Shown: positions 1-26,536 of the stretch, piece after piece
How positions within the stretch are numbered: the first letter of the stretch is position 1
How the letters are laid out: every line of letters starts with the position of its first letter
Assembly (NCBI GenBank): GCA_030650025.1
Contig: JAUSEN010000025.1
Span: 601 to 64,600 of the forward strand
Origin: Candidatus Magasanikiibacteriota bacterium
GTDB lineage: Bacteria; Patescibacteriota; Patescibacteriia; Magasanikbacterales; GWA2-37-8
Length of the DNA stretch: 64,000 bases
Reading direction: 5' to 3'
Notes under the pieces: model-generated
Seen by the model: the letters and a program-made list of their open reading frames with translations, nothing else
Database searches by the model: none
Told to the model about the DNA's origin: nothing
Made by a program: the position numbers and the translations under genes

Positions 1-103
1 TTTAATATCGGAAACCGAATTGCTAAAAAGCGTTCGCGCTGCTCGCCAGGAATACCTAGCAGGGCACTCCGTTAAGGCTAAGTCGCTGGCCGATTTGTTA
101 TGA
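1..103 (+). CDS. Partial (C-terminal) putative type II antitoxin; the gene starts upstream of the window.
   Basis: The open frame runs from the window start to a TGA at 101-103. That stop overlaps the ATG of the downstream RelE-like gene (ATGA overlap), as is usual for toxin-antitoxin pairs. Confidence 0.35.
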   Translation, partial: LISETELLKSVRAARQEYLAGHSVKAKSLADLL

Positions 104-381: not shown

Positions 382-1137
382 TTAATCTCTAGCCAAAACC
401 AGACTCCACAGTTCCTGCGTACCAGCCGCTTGTAGGGCCGCGGCGCAGGCGCGGAGCGTGGCGCCGGTCGTAAACACATCGTCTACTAAAATTACCTGTT
501 CCGGAGCGGGTTTATTTTTAGAATAGGCAAAAGCGCCTCTCATGTTTACCGCGCGCTCTTCTTTGCCAAGTTTGGTTTGCTGTTTGGTGGCGCGTACCCG
601 CTGTAAATCCACTCCGTTTATTTCTAAATCCATTTTTTGAGCAAAAATCTCGGCTAAGTCAGCGGCCAAATTAAAACCGCGGCTCCGCGCGCGCCGCGGG
701 AAAAGCGGCACGGGGATAACGACAGCGCGCCCCAAAGACTTGATCTCAAGAGGGGCAATAATTTTTTCCCAAACCGCGCGAATACTCCGAGCGTGGTTAT
801 ATTTATAAAGCTTAATTAACTTAGAAGCGGCCCGGCTAGACTGGTAGTCAAACAGCGCGGTGACGCCGAATTTAGGAATACGGTCGCAGTGAGAGCACGT
901 TGCCCATAGTTTAAGCGGCGCGCTACACTGGTTGCAAAAATTTTGTAAGCGCGCCGGTTCTTTAGCTTGGCAAGAAGCGCACCACCACTCCCCTTCTTGG
1001 CCACAAACTACGCAAAAAACCGGAAACAGCACGCCAGAGGCGTACTGTTTTATTTTAACAAGATTAATCATACAGTCAGAGCGGAGAATATCCTGAAGTT
1101 TATTTTTGGACTTCGTAAGAATCCACCAGCCAATCAC
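382..1137 (-). CDS. comFC: ComF family protein: double Zn-ribbon plus phosphoribosyltransferase domain.
   Basis: N-terminal CxxC...CxxC pairs (CVVCGQ...CASCQ, CNQC..CSHC) and a C-terminal PRTase motif (ILVDDVFTTGATL). Confidence 0.8.
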   Translation of the reverse strand: MIGWWILTKSKNKLQDILRSDCMINLVKIKQYASGVLFPVFCVVCGQEGEWWCASCQAKEPARLQNFCNQCSAPLKLWATCSHCDRIPKFGVTALFDYQSSRAASKLIKLYKYNHARSIRAVWEKIIAPLEIKSLGRAVVIPVPLFPRRARSRGFNLAADLAEIFAQKMDLEINGVDLQRVRATKQQTKLGKEERAVNMRGAFAYSKNKPAPEQVILVDDVFTTGATLRACAAALQAAGTQELWSLVLARD

Positions 1138-1711
1138 CAGAGTCTTTGATTAAAGTGACGACAATGTTTTGGTTAGTCACGGTAATTTGGCCGTTTTTTT
1201 CGAGAGTATTGCGAACTTGGAGTGTGGCGACAGCGGTTGGCGGGTCCCACTTAGTTAGCTCACTAACAAAAACTTCGGCGGTATTGCCGACAAATGGCCC
1301 GGCGGGTTGCGGGGTGCCAACTTTGGCGCCAATCCGCTGCCACATTTTTTGAGTGACGAGGGATTTTACTTCCACGATATTTTGCCATTTATTGTCCGTG
1401 GAATAAGAATTGTAGCGTTCCACAAAAATTACGGCTAGCTGGCGCACACCGCTTTGCTCGGCTTCAAGAGTGGTCTGCTTGGCCGGTGGCGCGGTAACTA
1501 CCCCAAGGCTCGGAGGATTCGTTAGGGCCGGCAACCGCTCTTCCACAGTATTGCTGTCGATAATATTGGCGGGCGCGGTCGGCGTGTTAGTAATGCCGAG
1601 AGCGGGCGGGGCGGCGGCGCGCTTGCTCCGAACCAAGAGGGCGATGCTAATGCCAAGAATCACGAGAACAGCCAAGCTAATCACTATAAATAGGCGGGTG
1701 CGGAGTGACAT
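1100..1711 (-). CDS. Membrane-anchored hypothetical protein with an N-terminal TM helix.
   Basis: ORF with a hydrophobic N-terminus (LFIVISLAVLVILGISIALLV). It sits in an operon between the VirB4 ATPase gene and comFC. Confidence 0.5.
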   Translation of the reverse strand: MSLRTRLFIVISLAVLVILGISIALLVRSKRAAAPPALGITNTPTAPANIIDSNTVEERLPALTNPPSLGVVTAPPAKQTTLEAEQSGVRQLAVIFVERYNSYSTDNKWQNIVEVKSLVTQKMWQRIGAKVGTPQPAGPFVGNTAEVFVSELTKWDPPTAVATLQVRNTLEKNGQITVTNQNIVVTLIKDSGDWLVDSYEVQK

Positions 1712-1729
1712 AAAGGCAAAAATTAAGAA

Positions 1730-3604
1730 TTACGGCTTCATTTGAGCTTCAAATTCGCGTTTCGATTGCTCGATTTGCAAAAGCTGTTCAGGATTCGTGG
1801 TAACGATCTGATCCTCGGTGTAAGACGCGACTACTTTGATGGCGGCATGTTTTTGACCGGCAAAGAAGATACCTTCGCCAACTCCGGATTCCAAAAGCAA
1901 ATACTTTTCGCTTTCCGTGAGCATAAAAGTTTTTTGCACTTGGTCCACGGCCGAGGGCGACTGCTTGAGAAGGAGCTGAAGCGCCGAGTTCGAGACAATC
2001 GCTTGGCCGTATTGGCTCTTTAAAAAGTCGTTAACATCCTGGGTAATAGTCGTGACGCCAAGGTAATATTTGCGACAGCGTTTAACGAGGGCGTAAATAA
2101 AGCGGGCGCTATCCTCGTTTTGCATAAGCCACCAGGCTTCGTCAATGACTAGGATGCGTTTTTTGCGCTCGCTCCTAACCACATTCCAAATATAATTAAC
2201 AATGGCGTAAATCGCCATAGGGCGGAGTTCGTCTTCGAGGTCGCGGACGCTAAAAACCACCAATTGGTTCCTCATTTCTACGTTCGTTGGCGAATTAAAA
2301 AGCCCAGAAAACGTGCCTTCGGTATATTTTTTAAGTTTTAAAACTAACTCACCGGAGCCTTCCATGCCTTCTAAAATTTCCGCTAAATCTTGCATGATCG
2401 GCGGCTTCACGGTAGTGAGGTCCGCGTCCGCCGTGATGTCTTTTTTAGCGTAGGTTTCAATCAGGGCGCGATCCAAAATTGAATCTTGCTCGGTAGTAAC
2501 GCCGCCGAGCATAATGCGGAGTAGCCCTTTCATAGTAATGACAGCGCCGCGGATAATGTCGTCCACCGCGACTTCTTGGCCGACCGGCCGAGGCAAGTCA
2601 AAGGGATTAACTTTGCTCTCGGAAGAGAGCGAGATATTAACATAAGTACCACCGACCGCGTCCGAGAGATGCTTGTACTCCATTTCCGGGTCAATGACGA
2701 TAACATCGACGCCAAACATCATGGTGCGCAAAATCTCCAGTTTGATGGCATAGCTTTTGCCTGAACCGGCCATGGCAAACACCACCATGTTGCCGTTTTG
2801 GAGACTAAAGCGGTCAAACAAAATCAAGCTGTTATTATGGCGATTAATGCCGTACAAAATGCCATCATCACTCGTGAGTTCCGCGGAGATAAACGGGAAC
2901 GACGCGGCGATCGGGCTCGAGTTCATGTTAAAGGCAATCATGAGCTCGTCGTTAGCCAGCGGCAGGGTGGAATTAAACCCTTGTTCGGCCTGGAACAAAA
3001 CTTTGCGGCTCGTAATTAATTTGGAGCCAAAAATATTTTCAATATCTTCGGAGATCTGGTCTAATTTTTCTTTGGTTTCGCAATAAATGGTGGCGTAAAA
3101 CGCGAATTGGAAAAAGTGCTCCACCCCTTGCGTTAAGTTGTCGCGCAATTGCTCGATGTCGCGCAGGGCGGTTTCTCTAACCGGGTCGCGCGGCGCGCCT
3201 TTTTCCGCATCGGAATTAATTTGGGCTTCCAAGGCGCCGACTTTATTTTTTAATTGTTTTAAAATAATAGCGGATTTAACCGGATAGAAAAACATCGCCA
3301 TGTCCATGGTGAGGGACATGCTGATAATCGGCGAGCTCCAGCCGATGGAAATATAGCGCGGGTATGAAACCACGAAAATTGTTCGAGCAAAAACCGAGCC
3401 GAGCTGGAGAAAACTCGATTCCACGTTAAAGGCGGCCGGGGCTACCAGATCGCGAATGGAAACCACGCCTTCGCGATAGACGCGCTCTTCTTCCAGCGTC
3501 ATGAGCTCGGAGGCGGCCTTGGTAGCCAGTTTGGCCTCGTCCTGCTCCAGTTTGCCGGCAGTCGCTTTATATTTGGAAACGTTAGTGGGGCGAAAAGCCA
3601 TCAT
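1730..3604 (-). CDS. virB4: VirB4/TrbE/CagE-family type IV secretion ATPase (ATPase core).
   Basis: Walker A (AMAGSGKS), DEAWW Walker B-like segment and a TraC/VirB4 C-terminal region. The start is placed at MMAF (ATG at 3602-3604), one nt after the TAG of the upstream ORF. Confidence 0.75.
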   Translation of the reverse strand: MMAFRPTNVSKYKATAGKLEQDEAKLATKAASELMTLEEERVYREGVVSIRDLVAPAAFNVESSFLQLGSVFARTIFVVSYPRYISIGWSSPIISMSLTMDMAMFFYPVKSAIILKQLKNKVGALEAQINSDAEKGAPRDPVRETALRDIEQLRDNLTQGVEHFFQFAFYATIYCETKEKLDQISEDIENIFGSKLITSRKVLFQAEQGFNSTLPLANDELMIAFNMNSSPIAASFPFISAELTSDDGILYGINRHNNSLILFDRFSLQNGNMVVFAMAGSGKSYAIKLEILRTMMFGVDVIVIDPEMEYKHLSDAVGGTYVNISLSSESKVNPFDLPRPVGQEVAVDDIIRGAVITMKGLLRIMLGGVTTEQDSILDRALIETYAKKDITADADLTTVKPPIMQDLAEILEGMEGSGELVLKLKKYTEGTFSGLFNSPTNVEMRNQLVVFSVRDLEDELRPMAIYAIVNYIWNVVRSERKKRILVIDEAWWLMQNEDSARFIYALVKRCRKYYLGVTTITQDVNDFLKSQYGQAIVSNSALQLLLKQSPSAVDQVQKTFMLTESEKYLLLESGVGEGIFFAGQKHAAIKVVASYTEDQIVTTNPEQLLQIEQSKREFEAQMKP

Positions 3605-3605
3605 A

Positions 3606-4292
3606 CTAAGATTGGTCAACTTCCATTTTATTAAGGGGCGGGATCTGTTCGGACAGGGCAATATCAGGGTTATAGGTTGAATAGAGGAGTTCGATTAGGG
3701 ACTGCGTGTCTAGCCTAACGGTCGTGAGACCCATGCTGGTTAAGCCGGATTCAATTTGGCGAAGGCGCTGGTCGAGGTCGTACTTGCGTTTTAAAAAACG
3801 CTCGCCTTTGAGCCGCACGGTAATGGCCGGGTTAATAACTTCCATGGCACGCGCCCAAAAACTCTTATTTTTATTGCTTAAAGGGTCATAGGGAACTACT
3901 ACGTAGAATTGCTTACTCATAATTTCGCCGAGCGACACCAATTCCGAAACAAACGAGCGATAATCAGACATTTGAGCGCGGAGGAGTTCGTTGCTTTGGG
4001 CGCGTTCTTTGGCGATTAATTTATCTAAGTAAGGCTTAATTTGCAGGCGGCGCGACTGCATCACGACCTGCAGAGGGTGCTCGAGCGAATTCAAGAAAGA
4101 AACATACGTAGAAATAATCGCGTTCTGCTCATCTTCGTTTTTTAAAGCGAAATTTAAACTCGAAACCATGAGGACAGCGCGAAGCGTTCCGTCCTTCATA
4201 ATAATAGTGTCGTTTCTGATTTCGGAAAAAAGCAAATGCAACTGCGCGGGCACTGTCTTCTTTTTTTGTTTGGCGGCTTTTTTGTTCTTCAT
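3606..4292 (-). CDS. VirB4 N-terminal-domain protein encoded separately (CagE/TrbE/VirB4 N-domain-like).
   Basis: The 228-aa product resembles the VirB4 N-terminal region (IIMKDGTLRAVLMVSSLNFALKNEDEQNAI...). It is translationally coupled (TAG-n-ATG) to the ATPase core. Confidence 0.55.
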   Translation of the reverse strand: MKNKKAAKQKKKTVPAQLHLLFSEIRNDTIIMKDGTLRAVLMVSSLNFALKNEDEQNAIISTYVSFLNSLEHPLQVVMQSRRLQIKPYLDKLIAKERAQSNELLRAQMSDYRSFVSELVSLGEIMSKQFYVVVPYDPLSNKNKSFWARAMEVINPAITVRLKGERFLKRKYDLDQRLRQIESGLTSMGLTTVRLDTQSLIELLYSTYNPDIALSEQIPPLNKMEVDQS

Positions 4293-4300
4293 GTGATTTA

Positions 4301-4380
4301 TGTCATCTTGAGCGAAGCGAAAGATCTAAGAAACATGATTTATTTTTACGCTTAGATTCTTCGCTACGCTCAGAATGACA
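4301..4380. repeat. Intergenic MITE-like long hairpin element, copy A (about 30-bp imperfect inverted arms TGTCATCTTGAGCGAAGCGAAAGATCTAAG ... CTTAGATTCTTCGCTACGCTCAGAATGACA).
   Basis: Near-palindromic arms with a 20-nt loop, lying between cistrons. Related copies occur at 13115-13194 and 56084-56189. Confidence 0.7.
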
Positions 4381-4387
4381 ATTATTT

Positions 4388-4819
4388 TTATTCGGCTTTA
4401 TAATAACCACCGGTATTTACTAAAAGCGTCAGGTCGCGAATGCGATTATAGGAAATATGTTTGATCTCCGGCGGCGCCTCGATGGGCAGGACTTTATTCT
4501 CGCGCATGATGGTTTTTATTTCCTTGTCGCTATAACCTTTATTCCAAACCCGGCGGCTCGGCCGCCGTAGAGTTTGAAAAATATTAAGCACAAAGTAATG
4601 AAAAACTTGCCCGTTTATTTTAACAAATGCGAGCACAAGTGAGAAGCCGCCAATTACGGCAAGAGCAAAAATGAAAAGCGTGGTGTCCACTAATTTAAAA
4701 GTAATAAATAAAACCAAGCCCGCCACCAGTAAAATAATAAATTGGCGGGTGGTGACGGGGCCAAAAATCTTGTCTTCCACATCAATAAATTGAGGGACGG
4801 TAAATTGATTCATGGTCAA
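4388..4819 (-). CDS. PrgI-family (VirB3-like) small membrane protein of Gram-positive-type T4SS.
   Basis: The N-terminus (VPQFIDVEDKIFGPVTTRQF) is followed by two TM helices. It lies adjacent to the VirB4 genes. Confidence 0.55.
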   Translation of the reverse strand: MTMNQFTVPQFIDVEDKIFGPVTTRQFIILLVAGLVLFITFKLVDTTLFIFALAVIGGFSLVLAFVKINGQVFHYFVLNIFQTLRRPSRRVWNKGYSDKEIKTIMRENKVLPIEAPPEIKHISYNRIRDLTLLVNTGGYYKAE

Positions 4820-4823
4820 AAAT

Positions 4824-5858
4824 TTAAGAGTTTAGTTCTTGATTCAAATGGGCAATGGCCAAAACCTCTTCGGGCGTTATGCCGCCGGCCGTATTGGCCG
4901 CGGCTGTGGCTAGCGATTTATTGTTTTGCGCCGCGCTCGCCAAGAATTTTATATAATCGCTAAACAAGGGGGACTCGCGCCAGGCAGTGAGAGAATCCAG
5001 ATAAAAAAGAATGGACTCTTCGCGCAGGTTTAAAAACTTTTGGCGGAGCCGGGAAGCGGCTTCGGCCGGGGCGCTCCCCAGGCGGCGCAGGTCGATTAAA
5101 TTGAATAAACGGATTTCGTCAATCGGGCTAACTTCAACATCGCGGCTAACGACGTCATTCATCGGCACTTTAGCGAGCGGCCCCTTCGAAATTTTAAATA
5201 AAGCGCTCGGCGCCGGAGCGGATGGTTTATTAACTAAAACCGGAATGCCCGGCTCGGCTGGAGGTTGGCGCTTTATCTGCGCTTCTAAATTAGAGGGGGC
5301 CAAAAGAGCGGCGCAGGCGGCTTCAAGTTCGTTGGCTTCTGGCTCTGCCAGAGCAAGCCCGCCCTGCAGAAGCGGGCGCATGGCAGCGTCTTTGGTCTGG
5401 GCGGTAGTGCGCACGTCTTTAAGGCGCAGTTGCGCGAGACTGCGCAGGCGATTAACAAAATCCGCCGGGACGGTAAAGCTCAAACTGGTGATGACTTTAT
5501 CCACCTGGTCCACGCGCGGGGCGCTCACTGCTACCAAATCATCGGCTTTAGAAATAGGGGCATCTTCTTCTAAAAGCGAGGTGTGCCAATCGCTGCTGGC
5601 ATTATTGATTTTAACAGGAATTGGCCGATCTTTGGGCTTAACAGGCTTAATAAGAGGAGGCCTGCTGACCGCTGGAGCAGATGCCTGTCGAGCAGGCAAA
5701 TTAACGCTAACAGCTTGAAGCGCGGCTGGTTTGACAACTGCTGGTACGGCGGCGCTTGGCTCTGGCGCAGGCTTTAAATTTTTAAGCACGCTAGAAAGCG
5801 GCACGCGCTCGGTGGTGCCGTCTTTTTTCTTAACAAGAATAGTTGGTTCCGGAGGCAT
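4824..5858 (-). CDS. Hypothetical protein, Pro/Ala-rich, within the T4SS-like operon.
   Basis: 344-aa ORF co-directional with and tightly spaced against its neighbours. No recognisable domain. Confidence 0.5.
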   Translation of the reverse strand: MPPEPTILVKKKDGTTERVPLSSVLKNLKPAPEPSAAVPAVVKPAALQAVSVNLPARQASAPAVSRPPLIKPVKPKDRPIPVKINNASSDWHTSLLEEDAPISKADDLVAVSAPRVDQVDKVITSLSFTVPADFVNRLRSLAQLRLKDVRTTAQTKDAAMRPLLQGGLALAEPEANELEAACAALLAPSNLEAQIKRQPPAEPGIPVLVNKPSAPAPSALFKISKGPLAKVPMNDVVSRDVEVSPIDEIRLFNLIDLRRLGSAPAEAASRLRQKFLNLREESILFYLDSLTAWRESPLFSDYIKFLASAAQNNKSLATAAANTAGGITPEEVLAIAHLNQELNS

Positions 5859-5864
5859 AAATTA

Positions 5865-6854: not shown

Positions 6855-7205
6855 ATTTTATGCTTATATTTTACCACGAATTCTGACAAATACGAAGTGC
6901 CTTTTAGAATATTCGCTTTTGACCAATTACAAACTAAAAAGCTTGGCCATTTCACGATACTTTACATTTTGCATGGGGTATTATACAAGTATAGTTATAG
7001 AAAATCATATGCTAATTTATAAGTCAAATGTGCTCTGTATTTGATTTAAATTAAAGTCAAGTATAATTTACCTGTGAAATTAGCTTTTTAAGCTTATTTA
7101 AGCAAAAAATACGCGCTATCACTGCATATATTATGCTAAAAATCTGTACCTAAAATACACATTTTAAACCAAATTGCGAGGTTTCTCTCTTCGCCCCTTT
7201 CCGTA

Positions 7206-8468: not shown

Positions 8469-8476
8469 ATACTAAA

Positions 8477-13099: not shown

Positions 13100-13114
13100 T
13101 TTATTTATTTTACC

Positions 13115-13194
13115 TGTCATCTTGAGCGAAGCGAAAGATCTAAGCGTATATTTGGCAAACTTGACTTAGATTCTTCGCTCTGCTCAGAATGACA
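13115..13194. repeat. Intergenic MITE-like long hairpin element, copy B.
   Basis: Same arm sequences as 4301-4380 with a different loop. It overlaps the most upstream ATG of the VirB6-like ORF. Confidence 0.7.
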
Positions 13195-13218
13195 ATCGTG
13201 ATAATATAATATTAACTC

Positions 13219-16200: not shown

Positions 16201-19200
16201 GGTCGCGACGCATACGCCGCTCCTAGCGCAAACGCCAGGTTGCGCGGCAGTGCCGCACGGCGCGAGCTCCTTGCAAGGAACATTAAATTCGCCCCCTAAA
16301 TCGCACTCCGAGAGATCACTCGGCACGCAGGCTGAATCCGTGGAAGTGGGGCTTTTGTTAACGCAAATCTTGTCGCCGCCAATGCTTTTATCGCCGCCGC
16401 AGGCGACTACTTTTACTAAACGCCAGGCCGGAGTCGAGGTGGGGTTATTAATATTGATTTGGCGCAAGGTTTCAATCGGGAGAGTGTTCAGGAGGGAATA
16501 ACCCGAATAATCCTGGCCAGTCCAGCCGACGTTACGCGTGACATAGACAGATTCGTCTAAGACACGAGGAGGAGGGTCGTTAATTTTGTAGGTAACCCAA
16601 TGGGCGCAAGTAGCATAAGAGCCTTTGGCCTTGCTGGGCAGAGCCCGGTCGCAACGAGCCACCTGGTCGCAGACTTTCTTAAAATTGCCAGTATTCTGGT
16701 CGCGCACGGTGTGCGAAGAGACGCACTGGATCCACTCGCCGCACATCCGGTCCTGTTTTACTTGAATAATAATGTTAGAATCATTGCCATTCGGGTCCGA
16801 AGCGGCCGGGACTAAATTGCCGTCCTTGTTTTCGCTATTTTTGTAACTTAAATCCGTGGACCAATATTTGTTGGGATTATCGGTTTTTTCAAACAGCGCG
16901 CAACCATATTTTTGGCTGGCCTGCCCCGCGCAATCGCCAGCCGAGATTTTTTTGTTATTTATAAAATAATGGCGCTCGTCATTGTCCGCGTGATCCACAA
17001 ACTCGGTGCACTGGTTCCACTCGTCCGGGCAAGAACCGACAAAATTTTGATAAGTTGACGTAGCGCCATAGGACCACAGGCCGTAAACCCCGTCCGCGTC
17101 AAGATATGATGGGTAGCACGGGACATTGGCCGCGAGGTCGCAAGAGTCGCCACCGCCGCAATCCGTATTCTTAACACAAAGGGCAGAGCTTTTTTTACAG
17201 TAACCAACTCCCTCTCTAAACCAGCCGCTATTTTTGGAAACAATATTTCTGACTTTCACATCCACATCCGCGCGATATTGGCAAAGGCCCTGCCCGCTTT
17301 GGAGAGGGTCTTTAAAGTAAAAGTCACCGCCGGCATTATCTTTATATTGGCCGCAAAAGAGCGCTTCCGCGTAGCAGAGCTGGTCGTTATACTCGGCCGG
17401 ACTATTTTTAATGGTGGTGGTAACATATTCAGGGCCGGTCGGAGTGTCTTTTAGTTTGCCGGCGTACATACAGCCTAAATCCGGCTCGGTGCAAGTGGCC
17501 CCTTTATTGGCTACTAAAAAGATGGGCGCGGTGGAAGAAGTGTCCGCGGGGACAGTGACAGTCGAAGTCACAACCGTGCCGCCGCCGTTTTGAATCGCGA
17601 TTAGAGAGAATTCCGCGGGAACGGTTTTAATATAACAACCGCTCCGCCCCACTTCGATCTGGCACTTGGGGTTTTTCTGGCCGAGTTTAAGATCTAGTGT
17701 TTTCCATGCCCCAGATAACCCGGGCATCCAAATATTATAATAGCGTTCGCCAGTGTCGCCCAAGGTATTAAAGCTGTCAATGACGCCAACACAGCCAATG
17801 GCATTTTCTCGGCACAAAAAGCTAAAGCCAGTGAGATTCACGCGTTGACCAACCGGGTTAGAATAAGCGCGGCAACCAAGCGCCGCCCCTGGCAAGTTAT
17901 CGTCCGTATTATCGTCGCAAGCAGAGCTGACTTTAAGGGTATTTTTCTTGATAAATATATTTTCAGCCACTTCCACTAACCTAACATTGTCTAAATATAT
18001 ACTGCCATTTTGGGTGAGAGCAAAGGCTAATCTAAAATTAGTGGTAGCAGGGTTATTGCCATTTGGAGTTAATTCCACCGGCCCTAAACTATAGTAATTC
18101 CAGGTGTCGCCAAGGCTAAGCGTGCCAAAAGCTTTGGTATATAAGCCATCGGCGGAATCCAGGCGTATATCAGTGGCAACGCCGCTGCCCTTGGCCCAAA
18201 AGCTAAGAATATAGGTATTGCCAGAAGCCAGTTCTAATTTTTTAAATACCTGGCCGGCTCCGGAATACCCGAGAGATTGGCCGGCGGGCTGGGTGGACTC
18301 GCGGGTGATGCTTATAGAACCACCCAAAATTGCCCAATCTTTTAAGAGAGCGGGCGTATTGGTGGCAATGTCGCTAAGTTCAAAAGTGTTTGGAAAATCA
18401 GCCATTACTTTGACATTATTGCCGGCGTTGCCTTTGTACTCGCGACAGCTATTGGCAGTCTCGGCGCAAGCGCGGCTCTCGCCAGCGCTATTCTTAGCGT
18501 CTTTAGGCAAACCATAGTAGTAGCACTGGCCATCTTTATATTCGCCGCTTTGGAAGCAGACCTGGCAGATATTGTCGGTTTTATTCCAAAACCCGTGGTA
18601 GATGCCGTTCTCTTCAGTGCAAGTGTTCTCGTTAATAGCGGGCACATTGTAAAGCTCGGTATTATTTAGCCGGTAACGCTGGCAAGAATCCGTAACCGGA
18701 ATAAGTCTAGAAAGCAAGCGATAAAAAACCCGGCCGCGGTCGTCGTTAAACTGGCGGCAATCCGGGTCAAAGGTTGGATTTTGGCTTTGCGCTTTATAAA
18801 CTGCTTCAGAGCAGAGGTCGGCAAACTTCTGGCGATCCGCCAAAGTGCCATATAAATATTTAGGCGCGCCAATTTGATTATTAGGGTTATTGATAATTGG
18901 TAAATTGTCTTCAACAGCAATGTTCTCTACCAAGCGATAGGTTTTAAGCTGAATACCGGTAAGAGCCGTGCTTTCGTAAGTAATGAAATTTTTGCCAGTA
19001 TTGACGCTGGAAGGAACGCAGGCGCGCAGATGCGTAAAATAATCCACCTGTTCCACTTGGTCTCCGGTAATATTGCCCACATTGGTAAACCCGGTACAGC
19101 CGGCGTCAGCAGGGGCGCAGGCTTCGCCGGAAGAGGGAATAATATAAGCCACATCTTGCCCGCCAGAGAAATTGCTGGGCATTTCGCGGTAACTGTCATA

Positions 19201-21456
19201 GCCCACACAAGAGGCATCGCATAAATTATCCACGCCGTATTTGCCGGGGATCGGGCGGCGATCGCCTGAAAGCGGAGTATACAAGTTACACCCCACTTCG
19301 CTCTTAATACAGGCTGATGAATACTGGCTGCAAGCGGGAGAAGCCGGCAATTGACGCAATTCTACCGGGGTATCGGGCCACTGGACGCCAAGCGCAACTT
19401 TATCAGCATCATAACAGCCCAAATACTCGGGGGCTTTTTTGAGAAACAGAGTAATGTCGGTCGAGGAAGCGTAAGCAAAGGCGCTGCAACCTTGTGAGTT
19501 AGGGGAACAACTTTCGGAAACAGATTTGTTAAAATAAATGCCATTATTAACACCCGCGTTCTGGCCCGGGCCCTGCCAACCACCATTTAGTTTGGTTAAG
19601 CTAAAATAATTACAACCCACATTTTGCGCCGAGCACCAGCCAGTGTCGAGCGTGCGGTAGATGTAAGAAGCGCTTTGATTCGTTTCGGAATTATTAAAAG
19701 TACGGCAGGTGCGAAATTCGGCCGGGCACTCGTCCGCGTCAAACTTCCAGGTATTTTTTTCGCGCGTGCAATAAGCGTAAGAGACGCACTGGCCTTTGAT
19801 GTCAAAAGCCACACAAGTAGAAAGGTCGGCACAGTCTTGGTTCCTCTGCGGGATGCCCTCGCTCAAGGGCTGTGGCCCCCACACCGAAGCATTACAACGA
19901 GTAGGTTCGAGTTTCAGCACCCAATTGGGGTCAATGAGATGGCAAAAAGGCTTGTTAACCGGGTCATAAATAATATTACCGGCTTCATCGCGCAGGCAGT
20001 CGTTGAAACCTTTAACCACTTGTTCCAAAGTCCAAGGGCGGTCCGGGTCGCTAAGCTTGGCCGCGATTTCAAATCCCAGTGGCAAAACGCGGATTTGGCG
20101 CAAGACCCGGATGTTGGCGTAGCAATAACTTTTTTCGAAACATTTTTTATCCATGTTTTCAGCCACGCGAGTCGGGGGCAGAAGTTGCTTGCTACCATCC
20201 AAAGCCCCGCTCTTCAAGGCGGCCGCGATAGTGGTGGGGCTGCCAACTTCGGTTTGTTTTAAAGCTTCCACTAATTTTTGATCAGCCCGGCAATTGTAAG
20301 TATTCTGGAGGCCATCGGGGCAAGCGGCGAGTTCGCCGGTTAAATCATAGTTATCAATCGGTTTAATTAGCGCGGTTTGCAAAATGCTTTCAAAATAAAT
20401 TTGCGCTTGGCGGCGCCCGCCAACAACACCCGTGCTCTCGTAGGCAGCCGCCCCGCCGCCGCCTAAACAAGCGGAAGAACCATCTTTACAGCCAATACCA
20501 AAAGGCAAAACACCTTGTTCTTGGTAATTTTTGACCATGGTACTAACCAACGTATTTACGAAAATGCTTAAAATAGTTGGCAAAACCTTAATATCCCCTT
20601 TGGAGAGAAGCGCGGCGATTTGCTGTTCGTCTTTTTCTTGTTGGGTGGAAGGCGTGTTAGACTCTAACTCTTTTTTAACATTACCAGCCGGGAGTTTAAT
20701 TTGGTCGGAAATTATACCAGCCACTGGCTTGGCCCCTCCACCTTCGAGGCGTTGCAATTCTTCGCCCGCCATTTTAACAGCCACGGTTTGATCTATAAGT
20801 TGTTTAGTGCCCAAATAAATTCCAAAATCAGTTTGGTCGGCGCTGCTCATGGCCGAGTTAAACTGATCCTGAATGTCATTGCCAAAACCGCTCCAGCGGC
20901 TTTTGTGGGCTTCGGCATCGCCCCAGTTTTTGGTAAATTCGGTAAAACTACAAGACGGCTTTTGTTGGCCAGCGTCCCCGCCACGCCCGCCAAAACCGCC
21001 AAACCCAGGCATCCGGAGACCCACCTTCATGGCGAGGTCTACTTTAATATCAGGAATTTTGCAAAGATTAAGGCCGATGCCAGTGCGCTTGTCGGCCAAG
21101 GATTCTATGGCCGCGCCAAAAGCTTCATTACCGACATCGGACATGTACGACCCGAAACCTTTGTTAAACGCCAGCGCGCCTTGGCCTTTGCCGCCGGAGG
21201 CGAGCCAGACAGCGGCGTCATAAGACACTTTGCGGATAACATATGTAACCAAACGAATGACGGCATTCAAAACCGCGGTTTTTAAAATTTCCCAAATCTG
21301 CAATAAAATATCTTTGATTTGCCCGGGGATATCAGTAGCGATAGTCGCAATTACTTGAGCATGAGCAGGAGGAGGAAAGCTAAACGAGCCTAGCAAAGCG
21401 CTAAGGGATACTAAGACCAGAAGAACGCTGGCGCTTAATTTCCTAAATCGCGACAT
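13219..21456 (-). CDS. Giant (2745 aa) secreted Cys-rich surface protein with a jelly-roll/CBM-like region. Putative adhesin associated with the T4SS-like locus.
   Basis: Signal peptide (MSRFRKLSASVLLVLVSLSALLG...AHA), hundreds of Cys in paired patterns, Gly/Asn/Thr-rich sequence and an uninterrupted 8.2-kb frame. The start is 4 nt downstream of the preceding gene. Confidence 0.85.
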   Translation of the reverse strand: MSRFRKLSASVLLVLVSLSALLGSFSFPPPAHAQVIATIATDIPGQIKDILLQIWEILKTAVLNAVIRLVTYVIRKVSYDAAVWLASGGKGQGALAFNKGFGSYMSDVGNEAFGAAIESLADKRTGIGLNLCKIPDIKVDLAMKVGLRMPGFGGFGGRGGDAGQQKPSCSFTEFTKNWGDAEAHKSRWSGFGNDIQDQFNSAMSSADQTDFGIYLGTKQLIDQTVAVKMAGEELQRLEGGGAKPVAGIISDQIKLPAGNVKKELESNTPSTQQEKDEQQIAALLSKGDIKVLPTILSIFVNTLVSTMVKNYQEQGVLPFGIGCKDGSSACLGGGGAAAYESTGVVGGRRQAQIYFESILQTALIKPIDNYDLTGELAACPDGLQNTYNCRADQKLVEALKQTEVGSPTTIAAALKSGALDGSKQLLPPTRVAENMDKKCFEKSYCYANIRVLRQIRVLPLGFEIAAKLSDPDRPWTLEQVVKGFNDCLRDEAGNIIYDPVNKPFCHLIDPNWVLKLEPTRCNASVWGPQPLSEGIPQRNQDCADLSTCVAFDIKGQCVSYAYCTREKNTWKFDADECPAEFRTCRTFNNSETNQSASYIYRTLDTGWCSAQNVGCNYFSLTKLNGGWQGPGQNAGVNNGIYFNKSVSESCSPNSQGCSAFAYASSTDITLFLKKAPEYLGCYDADKVALGVQWPDTPVELRQLPASPACSQYSSACIKSEVGCNLYTPLSGDRRPIPGKYGVDNLCDASCVGYDSYREMPSNFSGGQDVAYIIPSSGEACAPADAGCTGFTNVGNITGDQVEQVDYFTHLRACVPSSVNTGKNFITYESTALTGIQLKTYRLVENIAVEDNLPIINNPNNQIGAPKYLYGTLADRQKFADLCSEAVYKAQSQNPTFDPDCRQFNDDRGRVFYRLLSRLIPVTDSCQRYRLNNTELYNVPAINENTCTEENGIYHGFWNKTDNICQVCFQSGEYKDGQCYYYGLPKDAKNSAGESRACAETANSCREYKGNAGNNVKVMADFPNTFELSDIATNTPALLKDWAILGGSISITRESTQPAGQSLGYSGAGQVFKKLELASGNTYILSFWAKGSGVATDIRLDSADGLYTKAFGTLSLGDTWNYYSLGPVELTPNGNNPATTNFRLAFALTQNGSIYLDNVRLVEVAENIFIKKNTLKVSSACDDNTDDNLPGAALGCRAYSNPVGQRVNLTGFSFLCRENAIGCVGVIDSFNTLGDTGERYYNIWMPGLSGAWKTLDLKLGQKNPKCQIEVGRSGCYIKTVPAEFSLIAIQNGGGTVVTSTVTVPADTSSTAPIFLVANKGATCTEPDLGCMYAGKLKDTPTGPEYVTTTIKNSPAEYNDQLCYAEALFCGQYKDNAGGDFYFKDPLQSGQGLCQYRADVDVKVRNIVSKNSGWFREGVGYCKKSSALCVKNTDCGGGDSCDLAANVPCYPSYLDADGVYGLWSYGATSTYQNFVGSCPDEWNQCTEFVDHADNDERHYFINNKKISAGDCAGQASQKYGCALFEKTDNPNKYWSTDLSYKNSENKDGNLVPAASDPNGNDSNIIIQVKQDRMCGEWIQCVSSHTVRDQNTGNFKKVCDQVARCDRALPSKAKGSYATCAHWVTYKINDPPPRVLDESVYVTRNVGWTGQDYSGYSLLNTLPIETLRQININNPTSTPAWRLVKVVACGGDKSIGGDKICVNKSPTSTDSACVPSDLSECDLGGEFNVPCKELAPCGTAAQPGVCARSGVCVATPGGLPDVRLMDSAPSQICRAYPEQDSPFPNQPSIAKATNLFKGVNYCNEGNLPSSWKLTANLCECNYTRAQYGDFINKFWNYARPNQVPIVINSKNSKIPLGILGNQPGEVPKGLCQGGDRDGMDCEADRDCHKIEINKDNIFEKDKGDISSIDGACQKLKRVDPHLGWSGYCLEPDISRPLNGLPSEHPCLTWWPVDTLNGAADVNNQHTDAGYQGAPLYCLASNGAGNGKVVDWETPADPDGTSAKNFYTRRMGIGLGILSSRGTAPWENDNLGQFSRSFVQPVDNEIGVIMEDVERIDFKVTSGDSQDPANDATFSIWPNDPNKNKTVYQSYYRAITIQGGGANDNAYRPGVAVAGKYMGRGTDWVIAYSSAHKHEGSTFPYIFTSPSDGIPNDAQPNTPGTVGDFCYAYNGQNKNSCNAFSGNIFGSKMYASGVELPSQENNGSENIGIWSTRVKGSQICPSGAKDDAPHQECNSLPGRCGGNWHAIRVRFDPATHAFLGYYTAYCDDSPGSGSVGYHVFFKFKEWCKSVVSAKVNYTDPISAVAWTDRLWIGNANKSQYVVSNLKYDKDNNGNLTLVNYTTKPEPFGALATGNPADKFETILFTKADKIGKDPKDASKYQCPPNVGECNYDKLGEVYRDTGDKNKSVLLTPGYPYSCKDGLGGACPGYDGDKDVNLITNAIDFAKVGVGITGRTNVIQLFAKVFDIYDFNGSQYLTSGLAPTFNITRTGLNGVTPKAPTVYAVNCAEADQDANCIEGAPGAISVNNTSTGDIYLFGDYAERATTRFYAAAYKEQMPIRQIKVDWGDGMVTDPGLGAFRNQRGQVQTICSAPDKVTPGNCKTPSGAPVLAADGTTKLSCSYQNPGCPTVSQCVPENSAAEFGLIVNRSCDNSYFQFEHDYQCVKGDKTYHPSSSDCGRLPERFPEGCCIYKPRVQVKDNWGWCAGSCLGNVGSGCYDGNDGAGPDQCADPNSPLPWVNFGGKLYVKPTE

Positions 21457-21460
21457 AATT

Positions 21461-22168
21461 TTATGGGGTCGGCGAAATATTTATTAAAGTCGTGCTCACG
21501 CTTGAAGAGCGGCCAACGCCCACATTCGCGGCGCGCTGAATTTGCTCTAGTTGCGAACGGGTACTGGTGGCCGCCAAAATTTGCCCGCCCATTAACTTTA
21601 ACTGATCGTCGTTAATTTTATCGAGCGTCGCCTTGTCCATCCCTCCGGATAAAAGCAAACCGCGCAATTGCTTGGGGTCCTGCAAAATCGCCACTAGGTC
21701 GGGCGGCGGTTCTCCCAATTGCGCCGCGAGGGCCGCGGCGGTGGAAGAGGCGTCACTCACAGCGAGGCTTTGCTCGGACGCGGCCGGGGCCACGCAATCC
21801 TGGCCCTTGGGGCAAAGCGGCAGCCCTTTGGCCAAAACTTCGCGATCACTCATGCCATAACTAAAGGTATCAAATAAATATGGCGAAGTGCCATAAACAT
21901 AGAGCTCGTCAAAATCGTTTATCTCGTCGTGATCAGTGTCGCGGTAACGCAAAGCATCAATCGTGGCCACTTGATTCTTGAGGTCCACCGGCGGCTCGTT
22001 ATTTAAAGCCAAGGGGCCGTACATGGTATTGCGAATTTGCACTAGCCCCAGCCCAACACTTAAAAACGCAAAAACCACGAGCAACGAAAACCCGATTTTT
22101 TGCTCTTTGGTTAGGGAGTCCGGAAGGACCGCCATAATTAAAAAACTTAAGTTGGCACTTAAGTTCAT
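21461..22168 (-). CDS. Membrane-anchored hypothetical protein. First gene of the giant-protein operon.
   Basis: 235-aa ORF with a TM helix (FSLLVVFAFLSVGLGLV). It is tightly coupled to the giant gene. Confidence 0.55.
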   Translation of the reverse strand: MNLSANLSFLIMAVLPDSLTKEQKIGFSLLVVFAFLSVGLGLVQIRNTMYGPLALNNEPPVDLKNQVATIDALRYRDTDHDEINDFDELYVYGTSPYLFDTFSYGMSDREVLAKGLPLCPKGQDCVAPAASEQSLAVSDASSTAAALAAQLGEPPPDLVAILQDPKQLRGLLLSGGMDKATLDKINDDQLKLMGGQILAATSTRSQLEQIQRAANVGVGRSSSVSTTLINISPTP

Positions 22169-26535: not shown

Positions 26536-26536
26536 A

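What the first reader, a model, noticed from the sequence alone, without database searches (positions are those of the whole stretch)
382..22168. Type IV secretion-like / DNA-uptake locus with giant membrane and Cys-rich secreted proteins
Eleven co-directional, tightly coupled minus-strand genes make up the locus. They are a membrane protein (21461-22168), a 2745-aa signal-peptide Cys-rich giant protein, a 1547-aa VirB6/TrbL-like polytopic protein with a long charged repeat tail, three unknown proteins, a PrgI/VirB3-like gene, a split VirB4 (N-domain plus ATPase), a membrane protein and ComFC. The architecture resembles the Gram-positive-type T4SS-like systems reported in CPR bacteria. The giant Cys-rich exoprotein is a candidate pilus-tip or adhesin cargo. 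Having ComFC at the operon end links the locus to DNA uptake.
Basis: partly seen in the sequence, partly recalled or inferred. Interest (0 to 1): 0.6.

Follow-up and report, generated by a model that had tools for sequence, protein, structure and literature searches.

The report
Patescibacterial type IV secretion locus
This is the chromosomal type IV secretion system already described for ultra-small Patescibacteria (CPR), here in a Magasanikbacteria genome, and next to it sits a separate, uncharacterised two-gene module encoding a giant cysteine-rich surface protein and its small membrane partner.

Summary
The eleven minus-strand ORFs exist at the stated coordinates. The window is from a Candidatus Magasanikbacteria MAG (exact NCBI protein match).

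Genes 382-13120 are a Patescibacteria-type, monoderm (MPF-FATA-like) T4SS:
- an extended VirB6
- three lineage-specific unknown proteins
- PrgI/VirB3
- a TrsD-like protein plus VirB4, which together are collinear with a full-length CD1110-family VirB4
- a weak VirB8-like protein
- ComF

A 2025 paper already describes this layout, including the TrsD/VirB4 split, VirB8 and comF in class ABY1, and KsgA nearby. I found no relaxase, coupling protein, VirB1 or VirB2 pilin in the 64 kb.

The giant 2745-aa protein (Sec signal peptide, 110 Cys, a CBM-like beta-sandwich, an orphan-fold domain) and the small upstream membrane protein form their own unit. They are adjacent in 76 of 77 species. KsgA lies upstream in 66 of 68. 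VirB6 follows in only 31 of 42. In four of six distant lineages examined the pair sits in unrelated neighbourhoods with no T4SS genes.

So the "T4SS cargo or pilus tip" reading is unsupported, and single-operon status is doubtful. The T4SS is a new member of a known kind. The giant-protein family (more than 1,000 clusters, all annotated hypothetical) is the unexplored part.

The parts
21461..22168 (-). Small type-II membrane protein (235 aa). It has an N-terminal TM anchor, Asp-rich TSP3-like repeats of the calcium-binding type (DTDxDGxxDxDE...TSPY), a CPxGxxC loop and a conserved C-terminal helical motif. It is the invariant partner of the giant protein.
   Evidence: One TM helix at residues 25-43. 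Alignment of 21 orthologues shows invariant D77 T78 D79 D81 D85 E88 and C119. Precomputed Pfam PF18884 TSP3_bac is only 'faint' in orthologues. It lies directly upstream of the giant gene in 76 of 77 species loci.
13219..21456 (-). Giant secreted cysteine-rich protein (2745 aa). It is identical to NCBI hypothetical protein Q7K39_04390 of a Candidatus Magasanikbacteria MAG.
   Evidence: Exact match, plus 125 homologues of about 2500-3650 aa, all 'hypothetical'. At least 552 GTDB species hits. About 60 invariant Cys. Collinear over the full length even at 28% identity. The motif C-x5-7-C-x1-3-[FYW] occurs 14 times against 3.2 +/- 1.7 in shuffles.
21358..21456 (-). Signal peptide of the giant protein (residues 1-33, cleavage after the AHA motif).
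   Evidence: Hydrophobic segment at residues 7-25. A31 and A33 are invariant in the 16-sequence alignment A2; A33 is also invariant in A5/A6. Read from the translation.
19777..20373 (-). Conserved orphan-fold domain of the giant protein (residues 362-560). Mixed alpha/beta, with invariant Cys, E463, R453 and the HLIDPNW motif.
   Evidence: AlphaFold2 pLDDT 88.6, pTM 0.77. No Foldseek match in the PDB (best E 2.7, TM at most 0.17). The profile finds 1121 50%-identity clusters. In the top 150 the domain lies mostly near residue 350 of proteins of about 2500-3500 aa; the shorter hits may be fragments.
17962..18399 (-). CBM_4_9-like beta-sandwich (jelly roll) in the giant protein (about residues 1020-1165).
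   Evidence: PF02018 in 12 of 16 family members, best E 1e-6. Profile against PDB xylanase CBM 3jxs, E 0.007. In the AF2 model of residues 1-1170 this is the all-beta stretch 1041-1163. The top Foldseek PDB hits for that model are CBM16, CBM4 and CBM29, E about 3e-7. The table gives no query ranges, so assigning those hits to this stretch is an inference.
13115..13194 (-). Hairpin element of about 80 nt between the giant gene and VirB6. Its 3' arm contains the annotated VirB6 ATG.
   Evidence: Sequence. RNA fold -36.1 kcal/mol, z -5.5. Near-identical to the copy at 4301-4380. The 5' arm has more than 120 exact matches in metagenome contigs, so it is a widespread REP-like palindrome.
8477..13120 (-). 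Extended VirB6/TrbL-like polytopic membrane protein (1547 aa). TM domain about residues 28-400, then a roughly 1100-residue tail (29-40% charged residues over 470-1500) that ends in a G/T/P-rich stretch.
   Evidence: 7-8 TM helices. Tail composition and three D-x-x-G-x-x-LY-x-x-K-x-G motifs. No direct Pfam hit. Three of 16 orthologues hit TrbL, best 4.7e-7. Homologue P0285 (profile E 4e-73) hits PF04610 at 28.8 bits, above the 25.9-bit cut-off. Orthologue lengths range 933-1782 aa, and the tail is not conserved in sequence.
7206..8468 (-). Unknown protein (420 aa) with two hydrophobic segments. Shares a motif with the 329-aa protein.
   Evidence: No Pfam or NCBIfam hit. Shares a 41-residue motif with 5865-6854 (44% identity, E 3e-8). 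Homologues detected in only 4 loci.
6855..7205 (-). AT-rich intergenic gap of 351 nt. Possible internal promoter region.
   Evidence: No credible ORF. Sequence. One promoter-like hexamer pair on the minus strand at 7015-6988, but the scan as a whole is at most marginally above chance (31 sites against 24.2 +/- 3.8 in shuffles).
5865..6854 (-). Unknown protein (329 aa). Shares a motif with the 420-aa protein.
4824..5858 (-). Unknown protein (344 aa) with a Pro/Ala-rich N-terminal half. A lineage-specific T4SS-linked gene that always lies just upstream of PrgI.
   Evidence: No family hit. Homologues in 24 syntenic loci. 25 database homologues, with every named one from Magasanikbacteria and all 'hypothetical'.
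4388..4819 (-). PrgI/VirB3-like protein (143 aa, 2 TM helices).
   Evidence: PF12666 at 2.9e-9, 37.8 bits, above the 27-bit cut-off. TM helices. Orthologues are 141-155 aa.
4301..4380 (-). Second copy of the ~80-nt hairpin element. It ends 8 nt upstream of the TrsD-like start codon (3' arm ends at 4301, ATG at 4292).
   Evidence: (-34.9 kcal/mol, z -6.9). In orthologous loci the PrgI-TrsD gap is only a few nucleotides in most cases, so this copy is probably an insertion here.
3606..4292 (-). TrsD-like protein (228 aa), equivalent to the N-terminal domain of full-length VirB4.
   Evidence: PF11130 at 3.6e-5. NF041427 TrsD at 2.3e-7. NF045971 positions 19-120 and NF045975 positions 90-233. Orthologues carry PF26593 TraC-like. 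No match in the PDB by sequence.
1730..3604 (-). VirB4 ATPase (624 aa from the ATG at 3604). Walker A is AGSGKS; Walker B is LVIDEAW.
   Evidence: P-loop_TraG 1e-26 and AAA_10. NF045971 CD1110-family VirB4 at 344 bits, above the 325-bit cut-off, positions 173-730 of 752. PDB 4ag5 at 3e-49 and TrwK at 1e-7. Motifs read from the translation.
1100..1711 (-). Bitopic membrane protein (203 aa). VirB8-like by position and topology.
   Evidence: One TM helix. PF04335 VirB8 at E 0.008, 16.5 bits, below the 23.2-bit cut-off. Five orthologues give no VirB8 hit. The literature reports VirB8 homologues almost only in class ABY1.
382..1137 (-). ComF/ComFC-family protein (double zinc ribbon plus PRTase fold). 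The start is either the GTG at 1137 or the ATG at 1071.
   Evidence: PF00156 at 31.7 bits, above the 26.3-bit cut-off; DZR_2 at 26.4 bits, just below its 27-bit cut-off. TIGR00201 comF at 1.1e-24 over positions 1-190 of 190, but 87 bits against a 233-bit cut-off. It follows the VirB8-like gene in 4 of 4 loci with room, and a PRTase gene occupies the same place in L089.

Best explanation
The region holds two adjacent but separable units in a Candidatus Magasanikbacteria (Patescibacteria, class ABY1) chromosome.

Unit 1 (382-13120) is the vertically inherited, chromosomal 'Patescibacteria-clade' T4SS, derived from monoderm MPF-FATA conjugation machinery.
- Shown: a VirB4 ATPase with intact Walker motifs; its detached N-terminal domain (TrsD-like); PrgI/VirB3; an extended VirB6; a bitopic VirB8-like protein.
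- Inferred: the VirB4 hexamer docks through the TrsD-like protein and PrgI onto a channel built from VirB6 and the VirB8-like protein.
- Three lineage-specific proteins of unknown role and a ComF-family gene at the 3' end complete the unit.
- No relaxase, coupling protein, VirB1 hydrolase or VirB2 pilin lies within 64 kb. Most likely, therefore, it is not a conjugation machine. It would instead translocate an unknown substrate across the single membrane during contact with a host cell. This is inferred from the Saccharibacteria system, which is essential for epibiotic growth. A DNA-handling role through ComF remains possible.

Unit 2 (13219-22168) is a conserved two-gene cell-surface module.
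- The 2745-aa protein has a Sec signal peptide, so it should be exported by Sec.
- Its roughly 60 invariant cysteines point to folding into a disulfide-stapled extracellular structure. It carries a CBM-like beta-sandwich.
- Inferred: it is held at the cell surface by the small membrane protein with calcium-binding-type repeats, and it acts as a structural or adhesive surface component that binds glycans.
- It sits next to the T4SS in much of the Magasanikbacteria lineage, but as an evolutionary unit it does not depend on the T4SS.
For: Identity of the T4SS genes.

The split VirB4 is conserved in all orthologous loci.

The literature describes this same system, with TrsD next to VirB4 in 1,664 cases, VirB8 nearly restricted to ABY1, comF in ABY1 loci, KsgA nearby, and relaxases rare. 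The Saccharibacteria T4SS is essential for epibiotic growth independently of ComEC.

Pfam scans of the ORFs of at least 120 aa taken as genes across the window found no T4CP, relaxase or VirB1, and ORFs in the intergenic gaps show no pilin array.

Organism: exact NCBI matches to a Magasanikbacteria MAG.

Unit 2 as a separate unit:
- The small TM gene is directly upstream of the giant gene in 76 of 77 loci.
- KsgA is upstream in 66 of 68.
- VirB6 is downstream in 31 of 42, at a variable distance of 0.15-6.9 kb.
- In L001 an opposite-strand gene lies in between.
- In L084-L087 the pair follows thymidylate kinase, the ribosomal/SecY/Adk operon (twice) or HSP20, with no T4SS genes within the available flanks.

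Signal peptide and Cys conservation. CBM.
Against: The order giant, VirB6..., VirB4, VirB8-like, ComF is kept even in two lineages whose giant protein is only 28-36% identical (L088, L089). That would fit a functional link between the two units.

No expression, localisation or interaction data exist.

The VirB6 and VirB8 assignments are indirect or weak for the window's own proteins.

The substrate and the role of ComF are unknown. The anchoring of the giant protein by the small protein is inferred only from invariant adjacency.
Confidence: 0.7

Rival explanations
1. One integrated eleven-gene apparatus. The giant Cys-rich protein and its small partner would be the dedicated extracellular adhesin or stalk of this T4SS, standing in for the VirB2 pilin arrays or PrgB-type adhesins of other systems. 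All genes would be co-expressed.
For: The genes are co-directional and adjacent in the window. VirB6 follows the giant gene in 31 of 42 species loci and in two deeply diverged lineages. No VirB2 pilin or known adhesin is present in the window. The 2025 survey found no PrgB-like adhesin in Patescibacteria.
Against: The pair occurs without neighbouring T4SS genes in 11 of 42 closer loci and in 4 of 6 distant lineages examined.

Adjacency to the housekeeping gene KsgA (66 of 68) is stronger than adjacency to VirB6, so conserved synteny alone explains the neighbourhood.

The giant-VirB6 spacer is variable and can hold an opposite-strand gene.

The 'cargo' version conflicts with the Sec signal peptide.
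Confidence: 0.22
2. A DNA-uptake (competence) machine. The T4SS would import DNA and hand it to ComF (and ComEC), as the Helicobacter pylori ComB T4SS does with ComEC/ComFC, or as the archaeal Ced system does.
For: ComF is conserved at the 3' end of the T4SS block. The 2025 paper notes comF, recG and radA in ABY1 T4SS loci. ComEC is encoded about 27 kb away from the T4SS block on the same strand. No relaxase or T4CP is present. VirB4 shows weak similarity to CedB (2.1e-13).
Against: The CedB score is 49.8 bits against a 700-bit cut-off, whereas the conjugative VirB4 model scores 344 bits.

In the only genetically tractable patescibacterium, competence depends on type IV pili and ComEC. The T4SS is essential even though a comEC deletion is viable, so its key role there is not DNA uptake through ComEC.

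The comF adjacency may simply be conserved synteny, as with KsgA.
Confidence: 0.2
3. A remnant or active integrative conjugative element carrying a Gram-positive-type conjugation module.
For: VirB4 falls in the CD1110 family (the conjugative-transposon VirB4 model NF045971). The PrgI, TrsD, VirB4 order matches what I recall of pGO1/pIP501-type plasmids (gene order from my own knowledge).
Against: No integrase, relaxase, T4CP or flanking repeats in 64 kb.

The chromosomal position between housekeeping genes is the same in dozens of species.

Base composition in the T4SS block is not distinct from the rest of the window.

The literature shows vertical inheritance within classes.
Confidence: 0.03

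Closest known systems
Patescibacteria-clade chromosomal T4SS (Quinonero-Coronel et al. 2025, PMC12102498; functional data from Southlakia epibionticum, Wang et al. 2023, as summarised in PMC12857230)
   Same: VirB4 with a separate TrsD-like protein, PrgI/VirB3 and VirB6. A VirB8 homologue and comF, as reported for class ABY1. KsgA nearby. No relaxase. Chromosomal and vertically inherited.
   Different: No VirB2-like pilin array, VirB1-like hydrolase or T4CP within the 64-kb window. VirB6 is unusually long (1547 aa). The three accessory genes have detected homologues only in Magasanikbacteria-type loci. That paper does not mention the neighbouring giant-protein module.
Monoderm MPF-FATA conjugation systems: pGO1/pSK41 TrsC-TrsD-TrsE, pIP501 Tra, pCF10 Prg, C. 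difficile CTn2 (CD1110-family VirB4)
   Same: The order VirB3-like, TrsD, VirB4. VirB4 scores above the curated cut-off of the CD1110-family model. The TrsD-like protein matches NF041427. The system is built for an envelope without an outer membrane.
   Different: No relaxase, T4CP, PrgK/TrsG-type hydrolase or PrgB-type adhesin. It lies on a chromosome next to housekeeping genes, not on a mobile element.
Extended VirB6 proteins (Rickettsiales VirB6 paralogues; 'extended-VirB6' class in PMC12857230)
   Same: A polytopic VirB6-like N-terminal domain followed by a very large hydrophilic C-terminal extension.
   Different: The tail here is K/E-rich, Cys-free and not conserved in sequence even among orthologues, whose total lengths range 933-1782 aa. 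No homology to the rickettsial extensions was shown.
DNA-import T4SS-like systems: Helicobacter pylori ComB with ComEC/ComFC, and Sulfolobales Ced (CedA/CedB)
   Same: A VirB4-family ATPase and a polytopic membrane protein without relaxase or T4CP, genetically linked to a ComF-family protein, with ComEC present in the genome.
   Different: VirB4 is far closer to conjugative VirB4 than to CedB (344 bits against 49.8 bits). The host is a monoderm. Data from Saccharibacteria argue against a ComEC-dependent essential role.
Gram-positive T4SS surface adhesins (e.g. PrgB of pCF10)
   Same: A large secreted surface protein encoded upstream of the T4SS channel genes, plausibly mediating cell-cell contact.
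   Different: No sequence or domain similarity was found. There is no C-terminal LPXTG sorting signal or C-terminal TM segment. It has about 110 Cys, and it is conserved as a pair with a membrane protein even where no T4SS gene is nearby.

Membership tests
Type IV secretion system (monoderm MPF-FATA / Patescibacteria clade) | VirB4-family ATPase with Walker A and B motifs | tested here: met
   NF045971 at 344.4 bits (cut-off 325). PF19044 at 1e-26. PDB 4ag5 at 3e-49. Motifs AGSGKS and LVIDEAW are present.
Type IV secretion system (monoderm MPF-FATA / Patescibacteria clade) | VirB3/PrgI small membrane protein next to virB4 | tested here: met
   PF12666 at 37.8 bits, above the 27-bit cut-off; 2 TM helices.
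Type IV secretion system (monoderm MPF-FATA / Patescibacteria clade) | TrsD-like protein (VirB4 N-terminal homologue) adjacent to VirB4 | tested here: met
   NF041427 at 2.3e-7. NF045971 positions 19-120. PF11130 at 3.6e-5. All three are below the curated cut-offs, but orthologues carry PF26593 TraC-like. It is a separate ORF of 225-229 aa in 19 loci.
Type IV secretion system (monoderm MPF-FATA / Patescibacteria clade) | VirB6/TrbL polytopic channel protein | tested here: met
   Met indirectly only. The window protein gives no TrbL hit even at E 10. Three of 16 orthologues hit PF04610, best 4.7e-7. Homologue P0285 (profile E 4e-73) scores 28.8 bits, above the 25.9-bit cut-off. The protein has 7-8 TM helices.
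Type IV secretion system (monoderm MPF-FATA / Patescibacteria clade) | VirB8-like bitopic protein with an NTF2-like extracytoplasmic domain | tested here: inconclusive
   PF04335 at E 0.008, 16.5 bits, below 23.2. Five orthologues show no hit. Topology and gene position fit.
Conjugative T4SS | Relaxase and type IV coupling protein (VirD4/TcpA) | tested here: not met
   No such domains in the ORFs of at least 120 aa that I took as genes across the 64-kb window. The rest of the genome was not available.
Saccharibacteria-type T4SS | Array of VirB2-like pilin genes and a VirB1-like hydrolase near virB4 | tested here: not met
   There is no room for small genes inside the locus. No pilin-like ORFs in the intergenic gaps of the window. 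No SLT, CHAP or lysozyme domain was found. The orphan domain of the giant protein has no lysozyme-like fold match.
ComF/ComFC family | N-terminal Cys4-type double zinc ribbon plus C-terminal PRTase fold with a PRPP-loop motif | tested here: met
   DZR_2 at 26.4 bits, just below its 27-bit cut-off. PF00156 at 31.7 bits, above 26.3. TIGR00201 at 1.1e-24 over its full length, though 87 bits is below the 233-bit curated cut-off. Four CxxC pairs and the VILVDDVFTTGAT motif are present.
DNA-import systems (Ced / ComB) | CedB-type or ComB4-type ATPase scoring as an equivalog | tested here: not met
   NF041017 CedB at 49.8 bits against a 700-bit cut-off. NF053655 CedD at 22.4 bits against 600.
CBM_4_9 carbohydrate-binding module (within the giant protein) | Beta-sandwich jelly-roll fold with profile similarity to PF02018 | tested here: met
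   12 of 16 family members hit PF02018, best 1e-6, although the window copy gives no hit at E 0.1. PDB profile hit 3jxs at 0.007. Foldseek top hits are CBM16, CBM4 and CBM29, E about 3e-7, TM to target 0.56-0.67. Sugar binding itself was not tested.
Sortase-anchored Gram-positive adhesins (PrgB-like) | C-terminal LPXTG motif with a hydrophobic tail; adhesin domains | tested here: not met
   The C-terminus is ...GGKLYVKPTE, without LPXTG or a TM segment. No adhesin Pfam domain was found.

The most novel reading that the evidence does not exclude
The invariant pair of a calcium-binding-type membrane anchor and a ~2,700-aa disulfide-rich protein could be a previously unrecognised major surface organelle of ABY1-class Patescibacteria. 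In the Magasanikbacteria lineage it would serve as the missing extracellular, host-contact part of their pilin-less T4SS, binding host glycans through its CBM domain. The T4SS together with ComF would then process material, possibly DNA, taken from the host.
Probability: 0.2. Interest if true: 0.65.

Novelty: new member of a known kind. Interest (0 to 1): 0.4.

Why it matters
The T4SS part adds one more example, from Magasanikbacteria, of a system that is already catalogued in about 2,400 Patescibacteria genomes and is essential in the one tractable species. It is confirmatory.

The value here is in three refinements:
- The 'split VirB4' is collinear with a full-length CD1110-type VirB4 and is ancestral in this lineage.
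- The ABY1-type locus lacks pilins, hydrolase, coupling protein and relaxase within 64 kb, yet keeps ComF at its 3' end.
- The conspicuous giant Cys-rich protein is not a T4SS component by the gene-neighbourhood evidence. It belongs to a very large family (at least 552 species, more than 1,000 50%-identity clusters) whose named members are all annotated 'hypothetical', and it is always paired with a small membrane protein. It contains at least one confidently modelled domain with no PDB fold match.

For organisms that live attached to other cells, such a conserved surface giant is a reasonable target for experiments on host recognition.

Tried and rejected
- Giant protein: Pfam and PDB sequence searches gave nothing beyond the CBM.
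- I considered whether residues 362-560 are a VirB1-like lysozyme or transglycosylase, because the domain is helical with an invariant Glu. I rejected this: the model is confident (pLDDT 88.6) but has no PDB fold match.
- The AF2 model of residues 1-1170 is poor for residues 1-360 (pLDDT below 50), so nothing can be said about the N-terminal region.
- Promoter and terminator scans are at most marginally above chance (promoter-like sites 31 against 24.2 +/- 3.8 in shuffles) and cannot settle the operon structure.
- Rfam has nothing in the locus.
- Pfam scans of VirB8-like and unknown-protein orthologues gave only noise.
- Two literature searches for giant Cys-rich proteins in Patescibacteria or Magasanikbacteria found nothing relevant.
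- I considered a frameshift or pseudogene explanation for the TrsD/VirB4 split. I rejected it because both are separate ORFs of constant length in all orthologous loci recovered.
- I considered an origin of replication at about 52 kb, based on the strand switch and the GC-skew minimum, but there is no DnaA-box cluster there.

Full report
**Observation.** ORF listing confirms eleven minus-strand ORFs at exactly the coordinates given. Translations and a hydropathy scan confirm the descriptions:
- 21461-22168: one TM helix.
- 13219-21456: 2745 aa, N-terminal signal peptide, 110 Cys.
- 8477-13120: 1547 aa, 7-8 TM helices in the first ~400 residues, then a tail with 29-40% charged residues over 470-1500.
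- 4388-4819: 2 TM helices.
- 1100-1711: 1 TM helix.

Junctions are mostly tight (from -38 to +18 nt). The exceptions are a 351-nt AT-rich gap (6855-7205) and two gaps of 95-98 nt. Co-directionality does not delimit a locus here. Every ORF of at least 120 aa taken as a gene between 382 and 51423, bar one, is on the minus strand.

**Organism.** The giant protein and the 344-aa protein are exact matches to 'hypothetical proteins' Q7K39_04390 and Q7K39_04370 of a Candidatus Magasanikbacteria MAG on a 114-kb contig. From my own knowledge, GTDB places this lineage in Patescibacteria class ABY1.

**The T4SS genes.**
- VirB4: Pfam gives P-loop_TraG (1e-26) and AAA_10 for 1730-3661. NCBIfam places it in the CD1110 family of conjugative VirB4 ATPases at 344 bits, above the 325-bit cut-off, covering profile positions 173-730 of 752. 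The best solved relative is the VirB4 C-terminal domain of Thermoanaerobacter (4ag5, 3e-49), then R388 TrwK at 1e-7. Walker A (AGSGKS) and Walker B (LVIDEAW) are intact.
- TrsD-like: the 228-aa protein hits the TrsD model (2.3e-7). It also hits positions 19-120 of the same CD1110 model and positions 90-233 of the mycoplasma ICE VirB4 model.
- The split is not a frameshift. In the orthologous loci recovered (19 for TrsD, 14 for VirB4) the two are separate ORFs of 225-229 aa and 621-626 aa. This also places the true VirB4 start at the ATG at 3604.
- PrgI is above the Pfam threshold.
- VirB6: the window protein has no direct TrbL hit even at E 10. Three of 16 orthologues hit TrbL (best 4.7e-7). 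A homologue linked by a profile E-value of 4e-73 scores above the TrbL gathering threshold. I accept VirB6 by transitive homology plus topology.
- VirB8: only a sub-threshold hit (E 0.008), not reproduced in five orthologues. Inconclusive.
- ComF: PRTase and the TIGR00201 comF model over its full length (1.1e-24), though below NCBI's curated cut-off; the double zinc ribbon scores just below its Pfam cut-off.
- The three unknown proteins have no family. The 329-aa and 420-aa proteins share a motif. The 344-aa protein has 25 homologues, with every named one from Magasanikbacteria.

**What is missing.** I scanned the ORFs of at least 120 aa that I took as genes across the window and inspected ORFs in the intergenic gaps. 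There is no relaxase, VirD4/TcpA coupling protein, VirB1-type hydrolase or VirB2-like pilin array in 64 kb. ComEC is present at 40318-42000.

**Comparison with the literature.** Quinonero-Coronel et al. 2025 (PMC12102498) surveyed 3,035 Patescibacteria genomes and report:
- VirB4 in 2,417 of them, forming a monophyletic clade nested in MPF-FATA.
- TrsD adjacent to VirB4 in 1,664 cases.
- PrgI/VirB3 and VirB6 nearby.
- VirB8 homologues nearly confined to class ABY1.
- comF, recG and radA in ABY1 T4SS loci.
- KsgA commonly nearby.
- Relaxases rare.

That is this locus. A 2025 review (PMC12857230) summarises that the Southlakia T4SS is essential for epibiotic growth. It also reports that deleting comEC abolishes competence but not viability. 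The core of the finding is therefore a new member of a known kind.

**The giant protein.** It belongs to a large family.
- 125 homologues of about 2500-3650 aa were found (plus shorter, partly partial records), all unnamed. At least 552 GTDB species have hits.
- A profile of one domain finds 1,121 clusters at 50% identity. In the top 150 the domain lies mostly near residue 350 of proteins of similar size.
- About 60 cysteines are invariant.
- Distant members are collinear over the whole length.
- A short motif, C-x5-7-C-x1-3-aromatic, recurs 14 times against 3.2 expected.
- The only recognisable domain is a CBM_4_9-like beta-sandwich at about residues 1020-1165. It is found in 12 of 16 members, by a PDB profile hit and by Foldseek on the AF2 model.
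- Residues 362-560 model confidently (pLDDT 88.6, pTM 0.77) but match nothing in the PDB. That rules out my idea of a VirB1-like lysozyme domain.
- Residues 1-360 model poorly.
- There is no LPXTG signal and no C-terminal anchor.

**Is the giant protein part of the T4SS?** I fetched 80 species-level loci and mapped the window's proteins onto them.
- The small TM gene is directly upstream of the giant gene in 76 of 77 loci.
- KsgA is upstream in 66 of 68.
- A VirB6-like gene lies downstream on the same strand in 31 of 42 loci with enough sequence, at 0.15-6.9 kb. In L001 a methyltransferase gene and an opposite-strand gene lie in between.
- Eleven of 42 show no VirB6 within 10 kb downstream.
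- Of the more distant family members examined, two keep the whole order RF1, Sua5, KsgA, anchor, giant, VirB6..., PrgI; in L089 the contig continues through TraC-like, VirB4, a 197-aa protein and a PRTase gene, while L088 ends at PrgI (L088, L089).
- Four others have the anchor-giant pair behind thymidylate kinase, behind the ribosomal/SecY/Adk operon (twice) or behind HSP20. None of these has T4SS genes within the available flanks (L084-L087).

The invariant unit is therefore the anchor-giant pair. Its neighbourhood with the T4SS is a lineage-level synteny that also includes unrelated housekeeping genes. The Sec signal peptide also argues against the giant protein being T4SS cargo. A functional link, with the giant as a host-contact structure for a pilin-less T4SS, is not excluded. 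I give it about 0.2.

**The small partner.** Alignment of 21 orthologues shows an N-terminal TM anchor, then one or two Asp-rich TSP3-like repeats (DTDxDGxxDxDE...TSPYxxDTDSDG), then a CPxGxxC loop and a conserved C-terminal helical motif. Pfam TSP3_bac is only 'faint' in the precomputed hits. Tethering of the giant protein by this protein is inferred from adjacency only.

**Operon structure.** Both ~95-nt gaps are filled by near-identical ~80-nt hairpins, at 13115-13194 and 4301-4380. Predicted folds are -36 and -35 kcal/mol, with z-scores of -5.5 and -6.9.
- The first hairpin includes the annotated VirB6 start codon in its 3' arm.
- Orthologous loci mostly have only a few nucleotides between PrgI and TrsD, so the second copy is probably an insertion here.
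- The 5' arm has more than 120 exact matches in metagenome contigs from many habitats.

It is a ubiquitous REP-like palindrome rather than a T4SS-specific signal, though it may still affect mRNA stability or translation locally. Together with the 351-nt gap, this makes a single eleven-gene transcript doubtful. Promoter and terminator scans are uninformative.

**Mechanism and confidence.**
- Shown: gene identities, the split VirB4, the absence of conjugation-specific genes in the window, and the independence of the giant module in gene-neighbourhood terms.
- Inferred: a VirB4-powered VirB3/VirB6/VirB8-like channel in a single membrane, used in host interaction rather than conjugation. The giant protein would be a Sec-exported, disulfide-stabilised, glycan-binding surface structure held by the small anchor.

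I put 0.7 on this composite explanation. I put 0.22 on the integrated-apparatus reading, 0.2 on a DNA-uptake role for the T4SS with ComF (this overlaps with the others), and 0.03 on an ICE remnant.

**Verdict.** The T4SS is a new member of a known kind. The giant-protein module is a real, widespread and unstudied family, but it is not demonstrably part of the T4SS. Interest 0.4.

Noticed in passing
window 13115-13194 and 4301-4380 (minus strand); related element at 29009-29144: Two near-identical ~80-nt imperfect hairpins (arms GTCATTCTGAGCnnAGCGAAGAATCTAAG / CTTAGATCTTTCGCTTCGCTCAAGATGAC). One overlaps the VirB6 start codon; the other ends 8 nt upstream of the TrsD-like start codon. Predicted folds are -35 to -36 kcal/mol, z -5.5 to -6.9. 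The 5' arm has more than 120 exact matches in metagenome contigs from many habitats, so this is a widespread REP-like palindrome with no Rfam family. A different long hairpin (-55 kcal/mol, z -7.9) sits just upstream of the RF1 gene, in the gap next to the small multidrug-export gene.
   Followed up: partly
window 25411-26574 (minus strand): The Sua5/YrdC protein is 387 aa, and its Sua5 domain is interrupted by a DUF559 (Vsr-like endonuclease) domain at residues 158-262. Orthologues in related loci are 203-218 aa without the insert.
   Followed up: no
window 43287-46376 (minus strand): The leucyl-tRNA synthetase (1029 aa) carries an inserted Ser_hydrolase / alpha-beta-hydrolase domain at residues 454-619.
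   Followed up: no
window 26901-27890 (minus strand): A RhuM/Fic-domain gene sits between Sua5 and RF1, which are adjacent in related genomes (L001, L088). It is probably an insertion. L087 also has a RhuM gene near its giant-protein locus.
   Followed up: no
window about 50000-52600: Gene orientation switches from minus (382-51423) to plus (from 52553), and cumulative GC skew has its minimum near 50 kb. This resembles a replication origin or terminus, but there is no DnaA-box cluster and no dnaA. The 252-aa ORF at 51598-52356 has no family, and its region has overlapping ORFs on both strands.
   Followed up: partly
window 38476-42639 (minus strand): ComEC (Competence + DUF4131, 40318-42000) has its metallo-beta-lactamase parts encoded as separate genes on either side (38476-39516 and 42004-42639).
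   Followed up: no
window 100-372 (+) and 47292-47782 (-): A HigB/RelE-like toxin gene lies at the window's left end. At 47292-47782 two small adjacent ORFs look, by eye only, like a RelE/ParE-type toxin-antitoxin pair; neither was scanned against any library.
   Followed up: no
L085 18720-26861; L087 18632-22231: In the lineages where the anchor-giant pair follows the ribosomal/SecY/Adk operon, a second giant gene lies directly downstream (2713 aa in L085). In L085 a 1715-aa LamG-rich protein then follows, suggesting surface-protein islands.
   Followed up: no
L001 18624-20576 (opposite strand): In one related genome a 650-aa Cys-rich protein (Cu-binding_MopE, with faint Stig1) and a methyltransferase are inserted between the giant gene and VirB6.
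   Followed up: no
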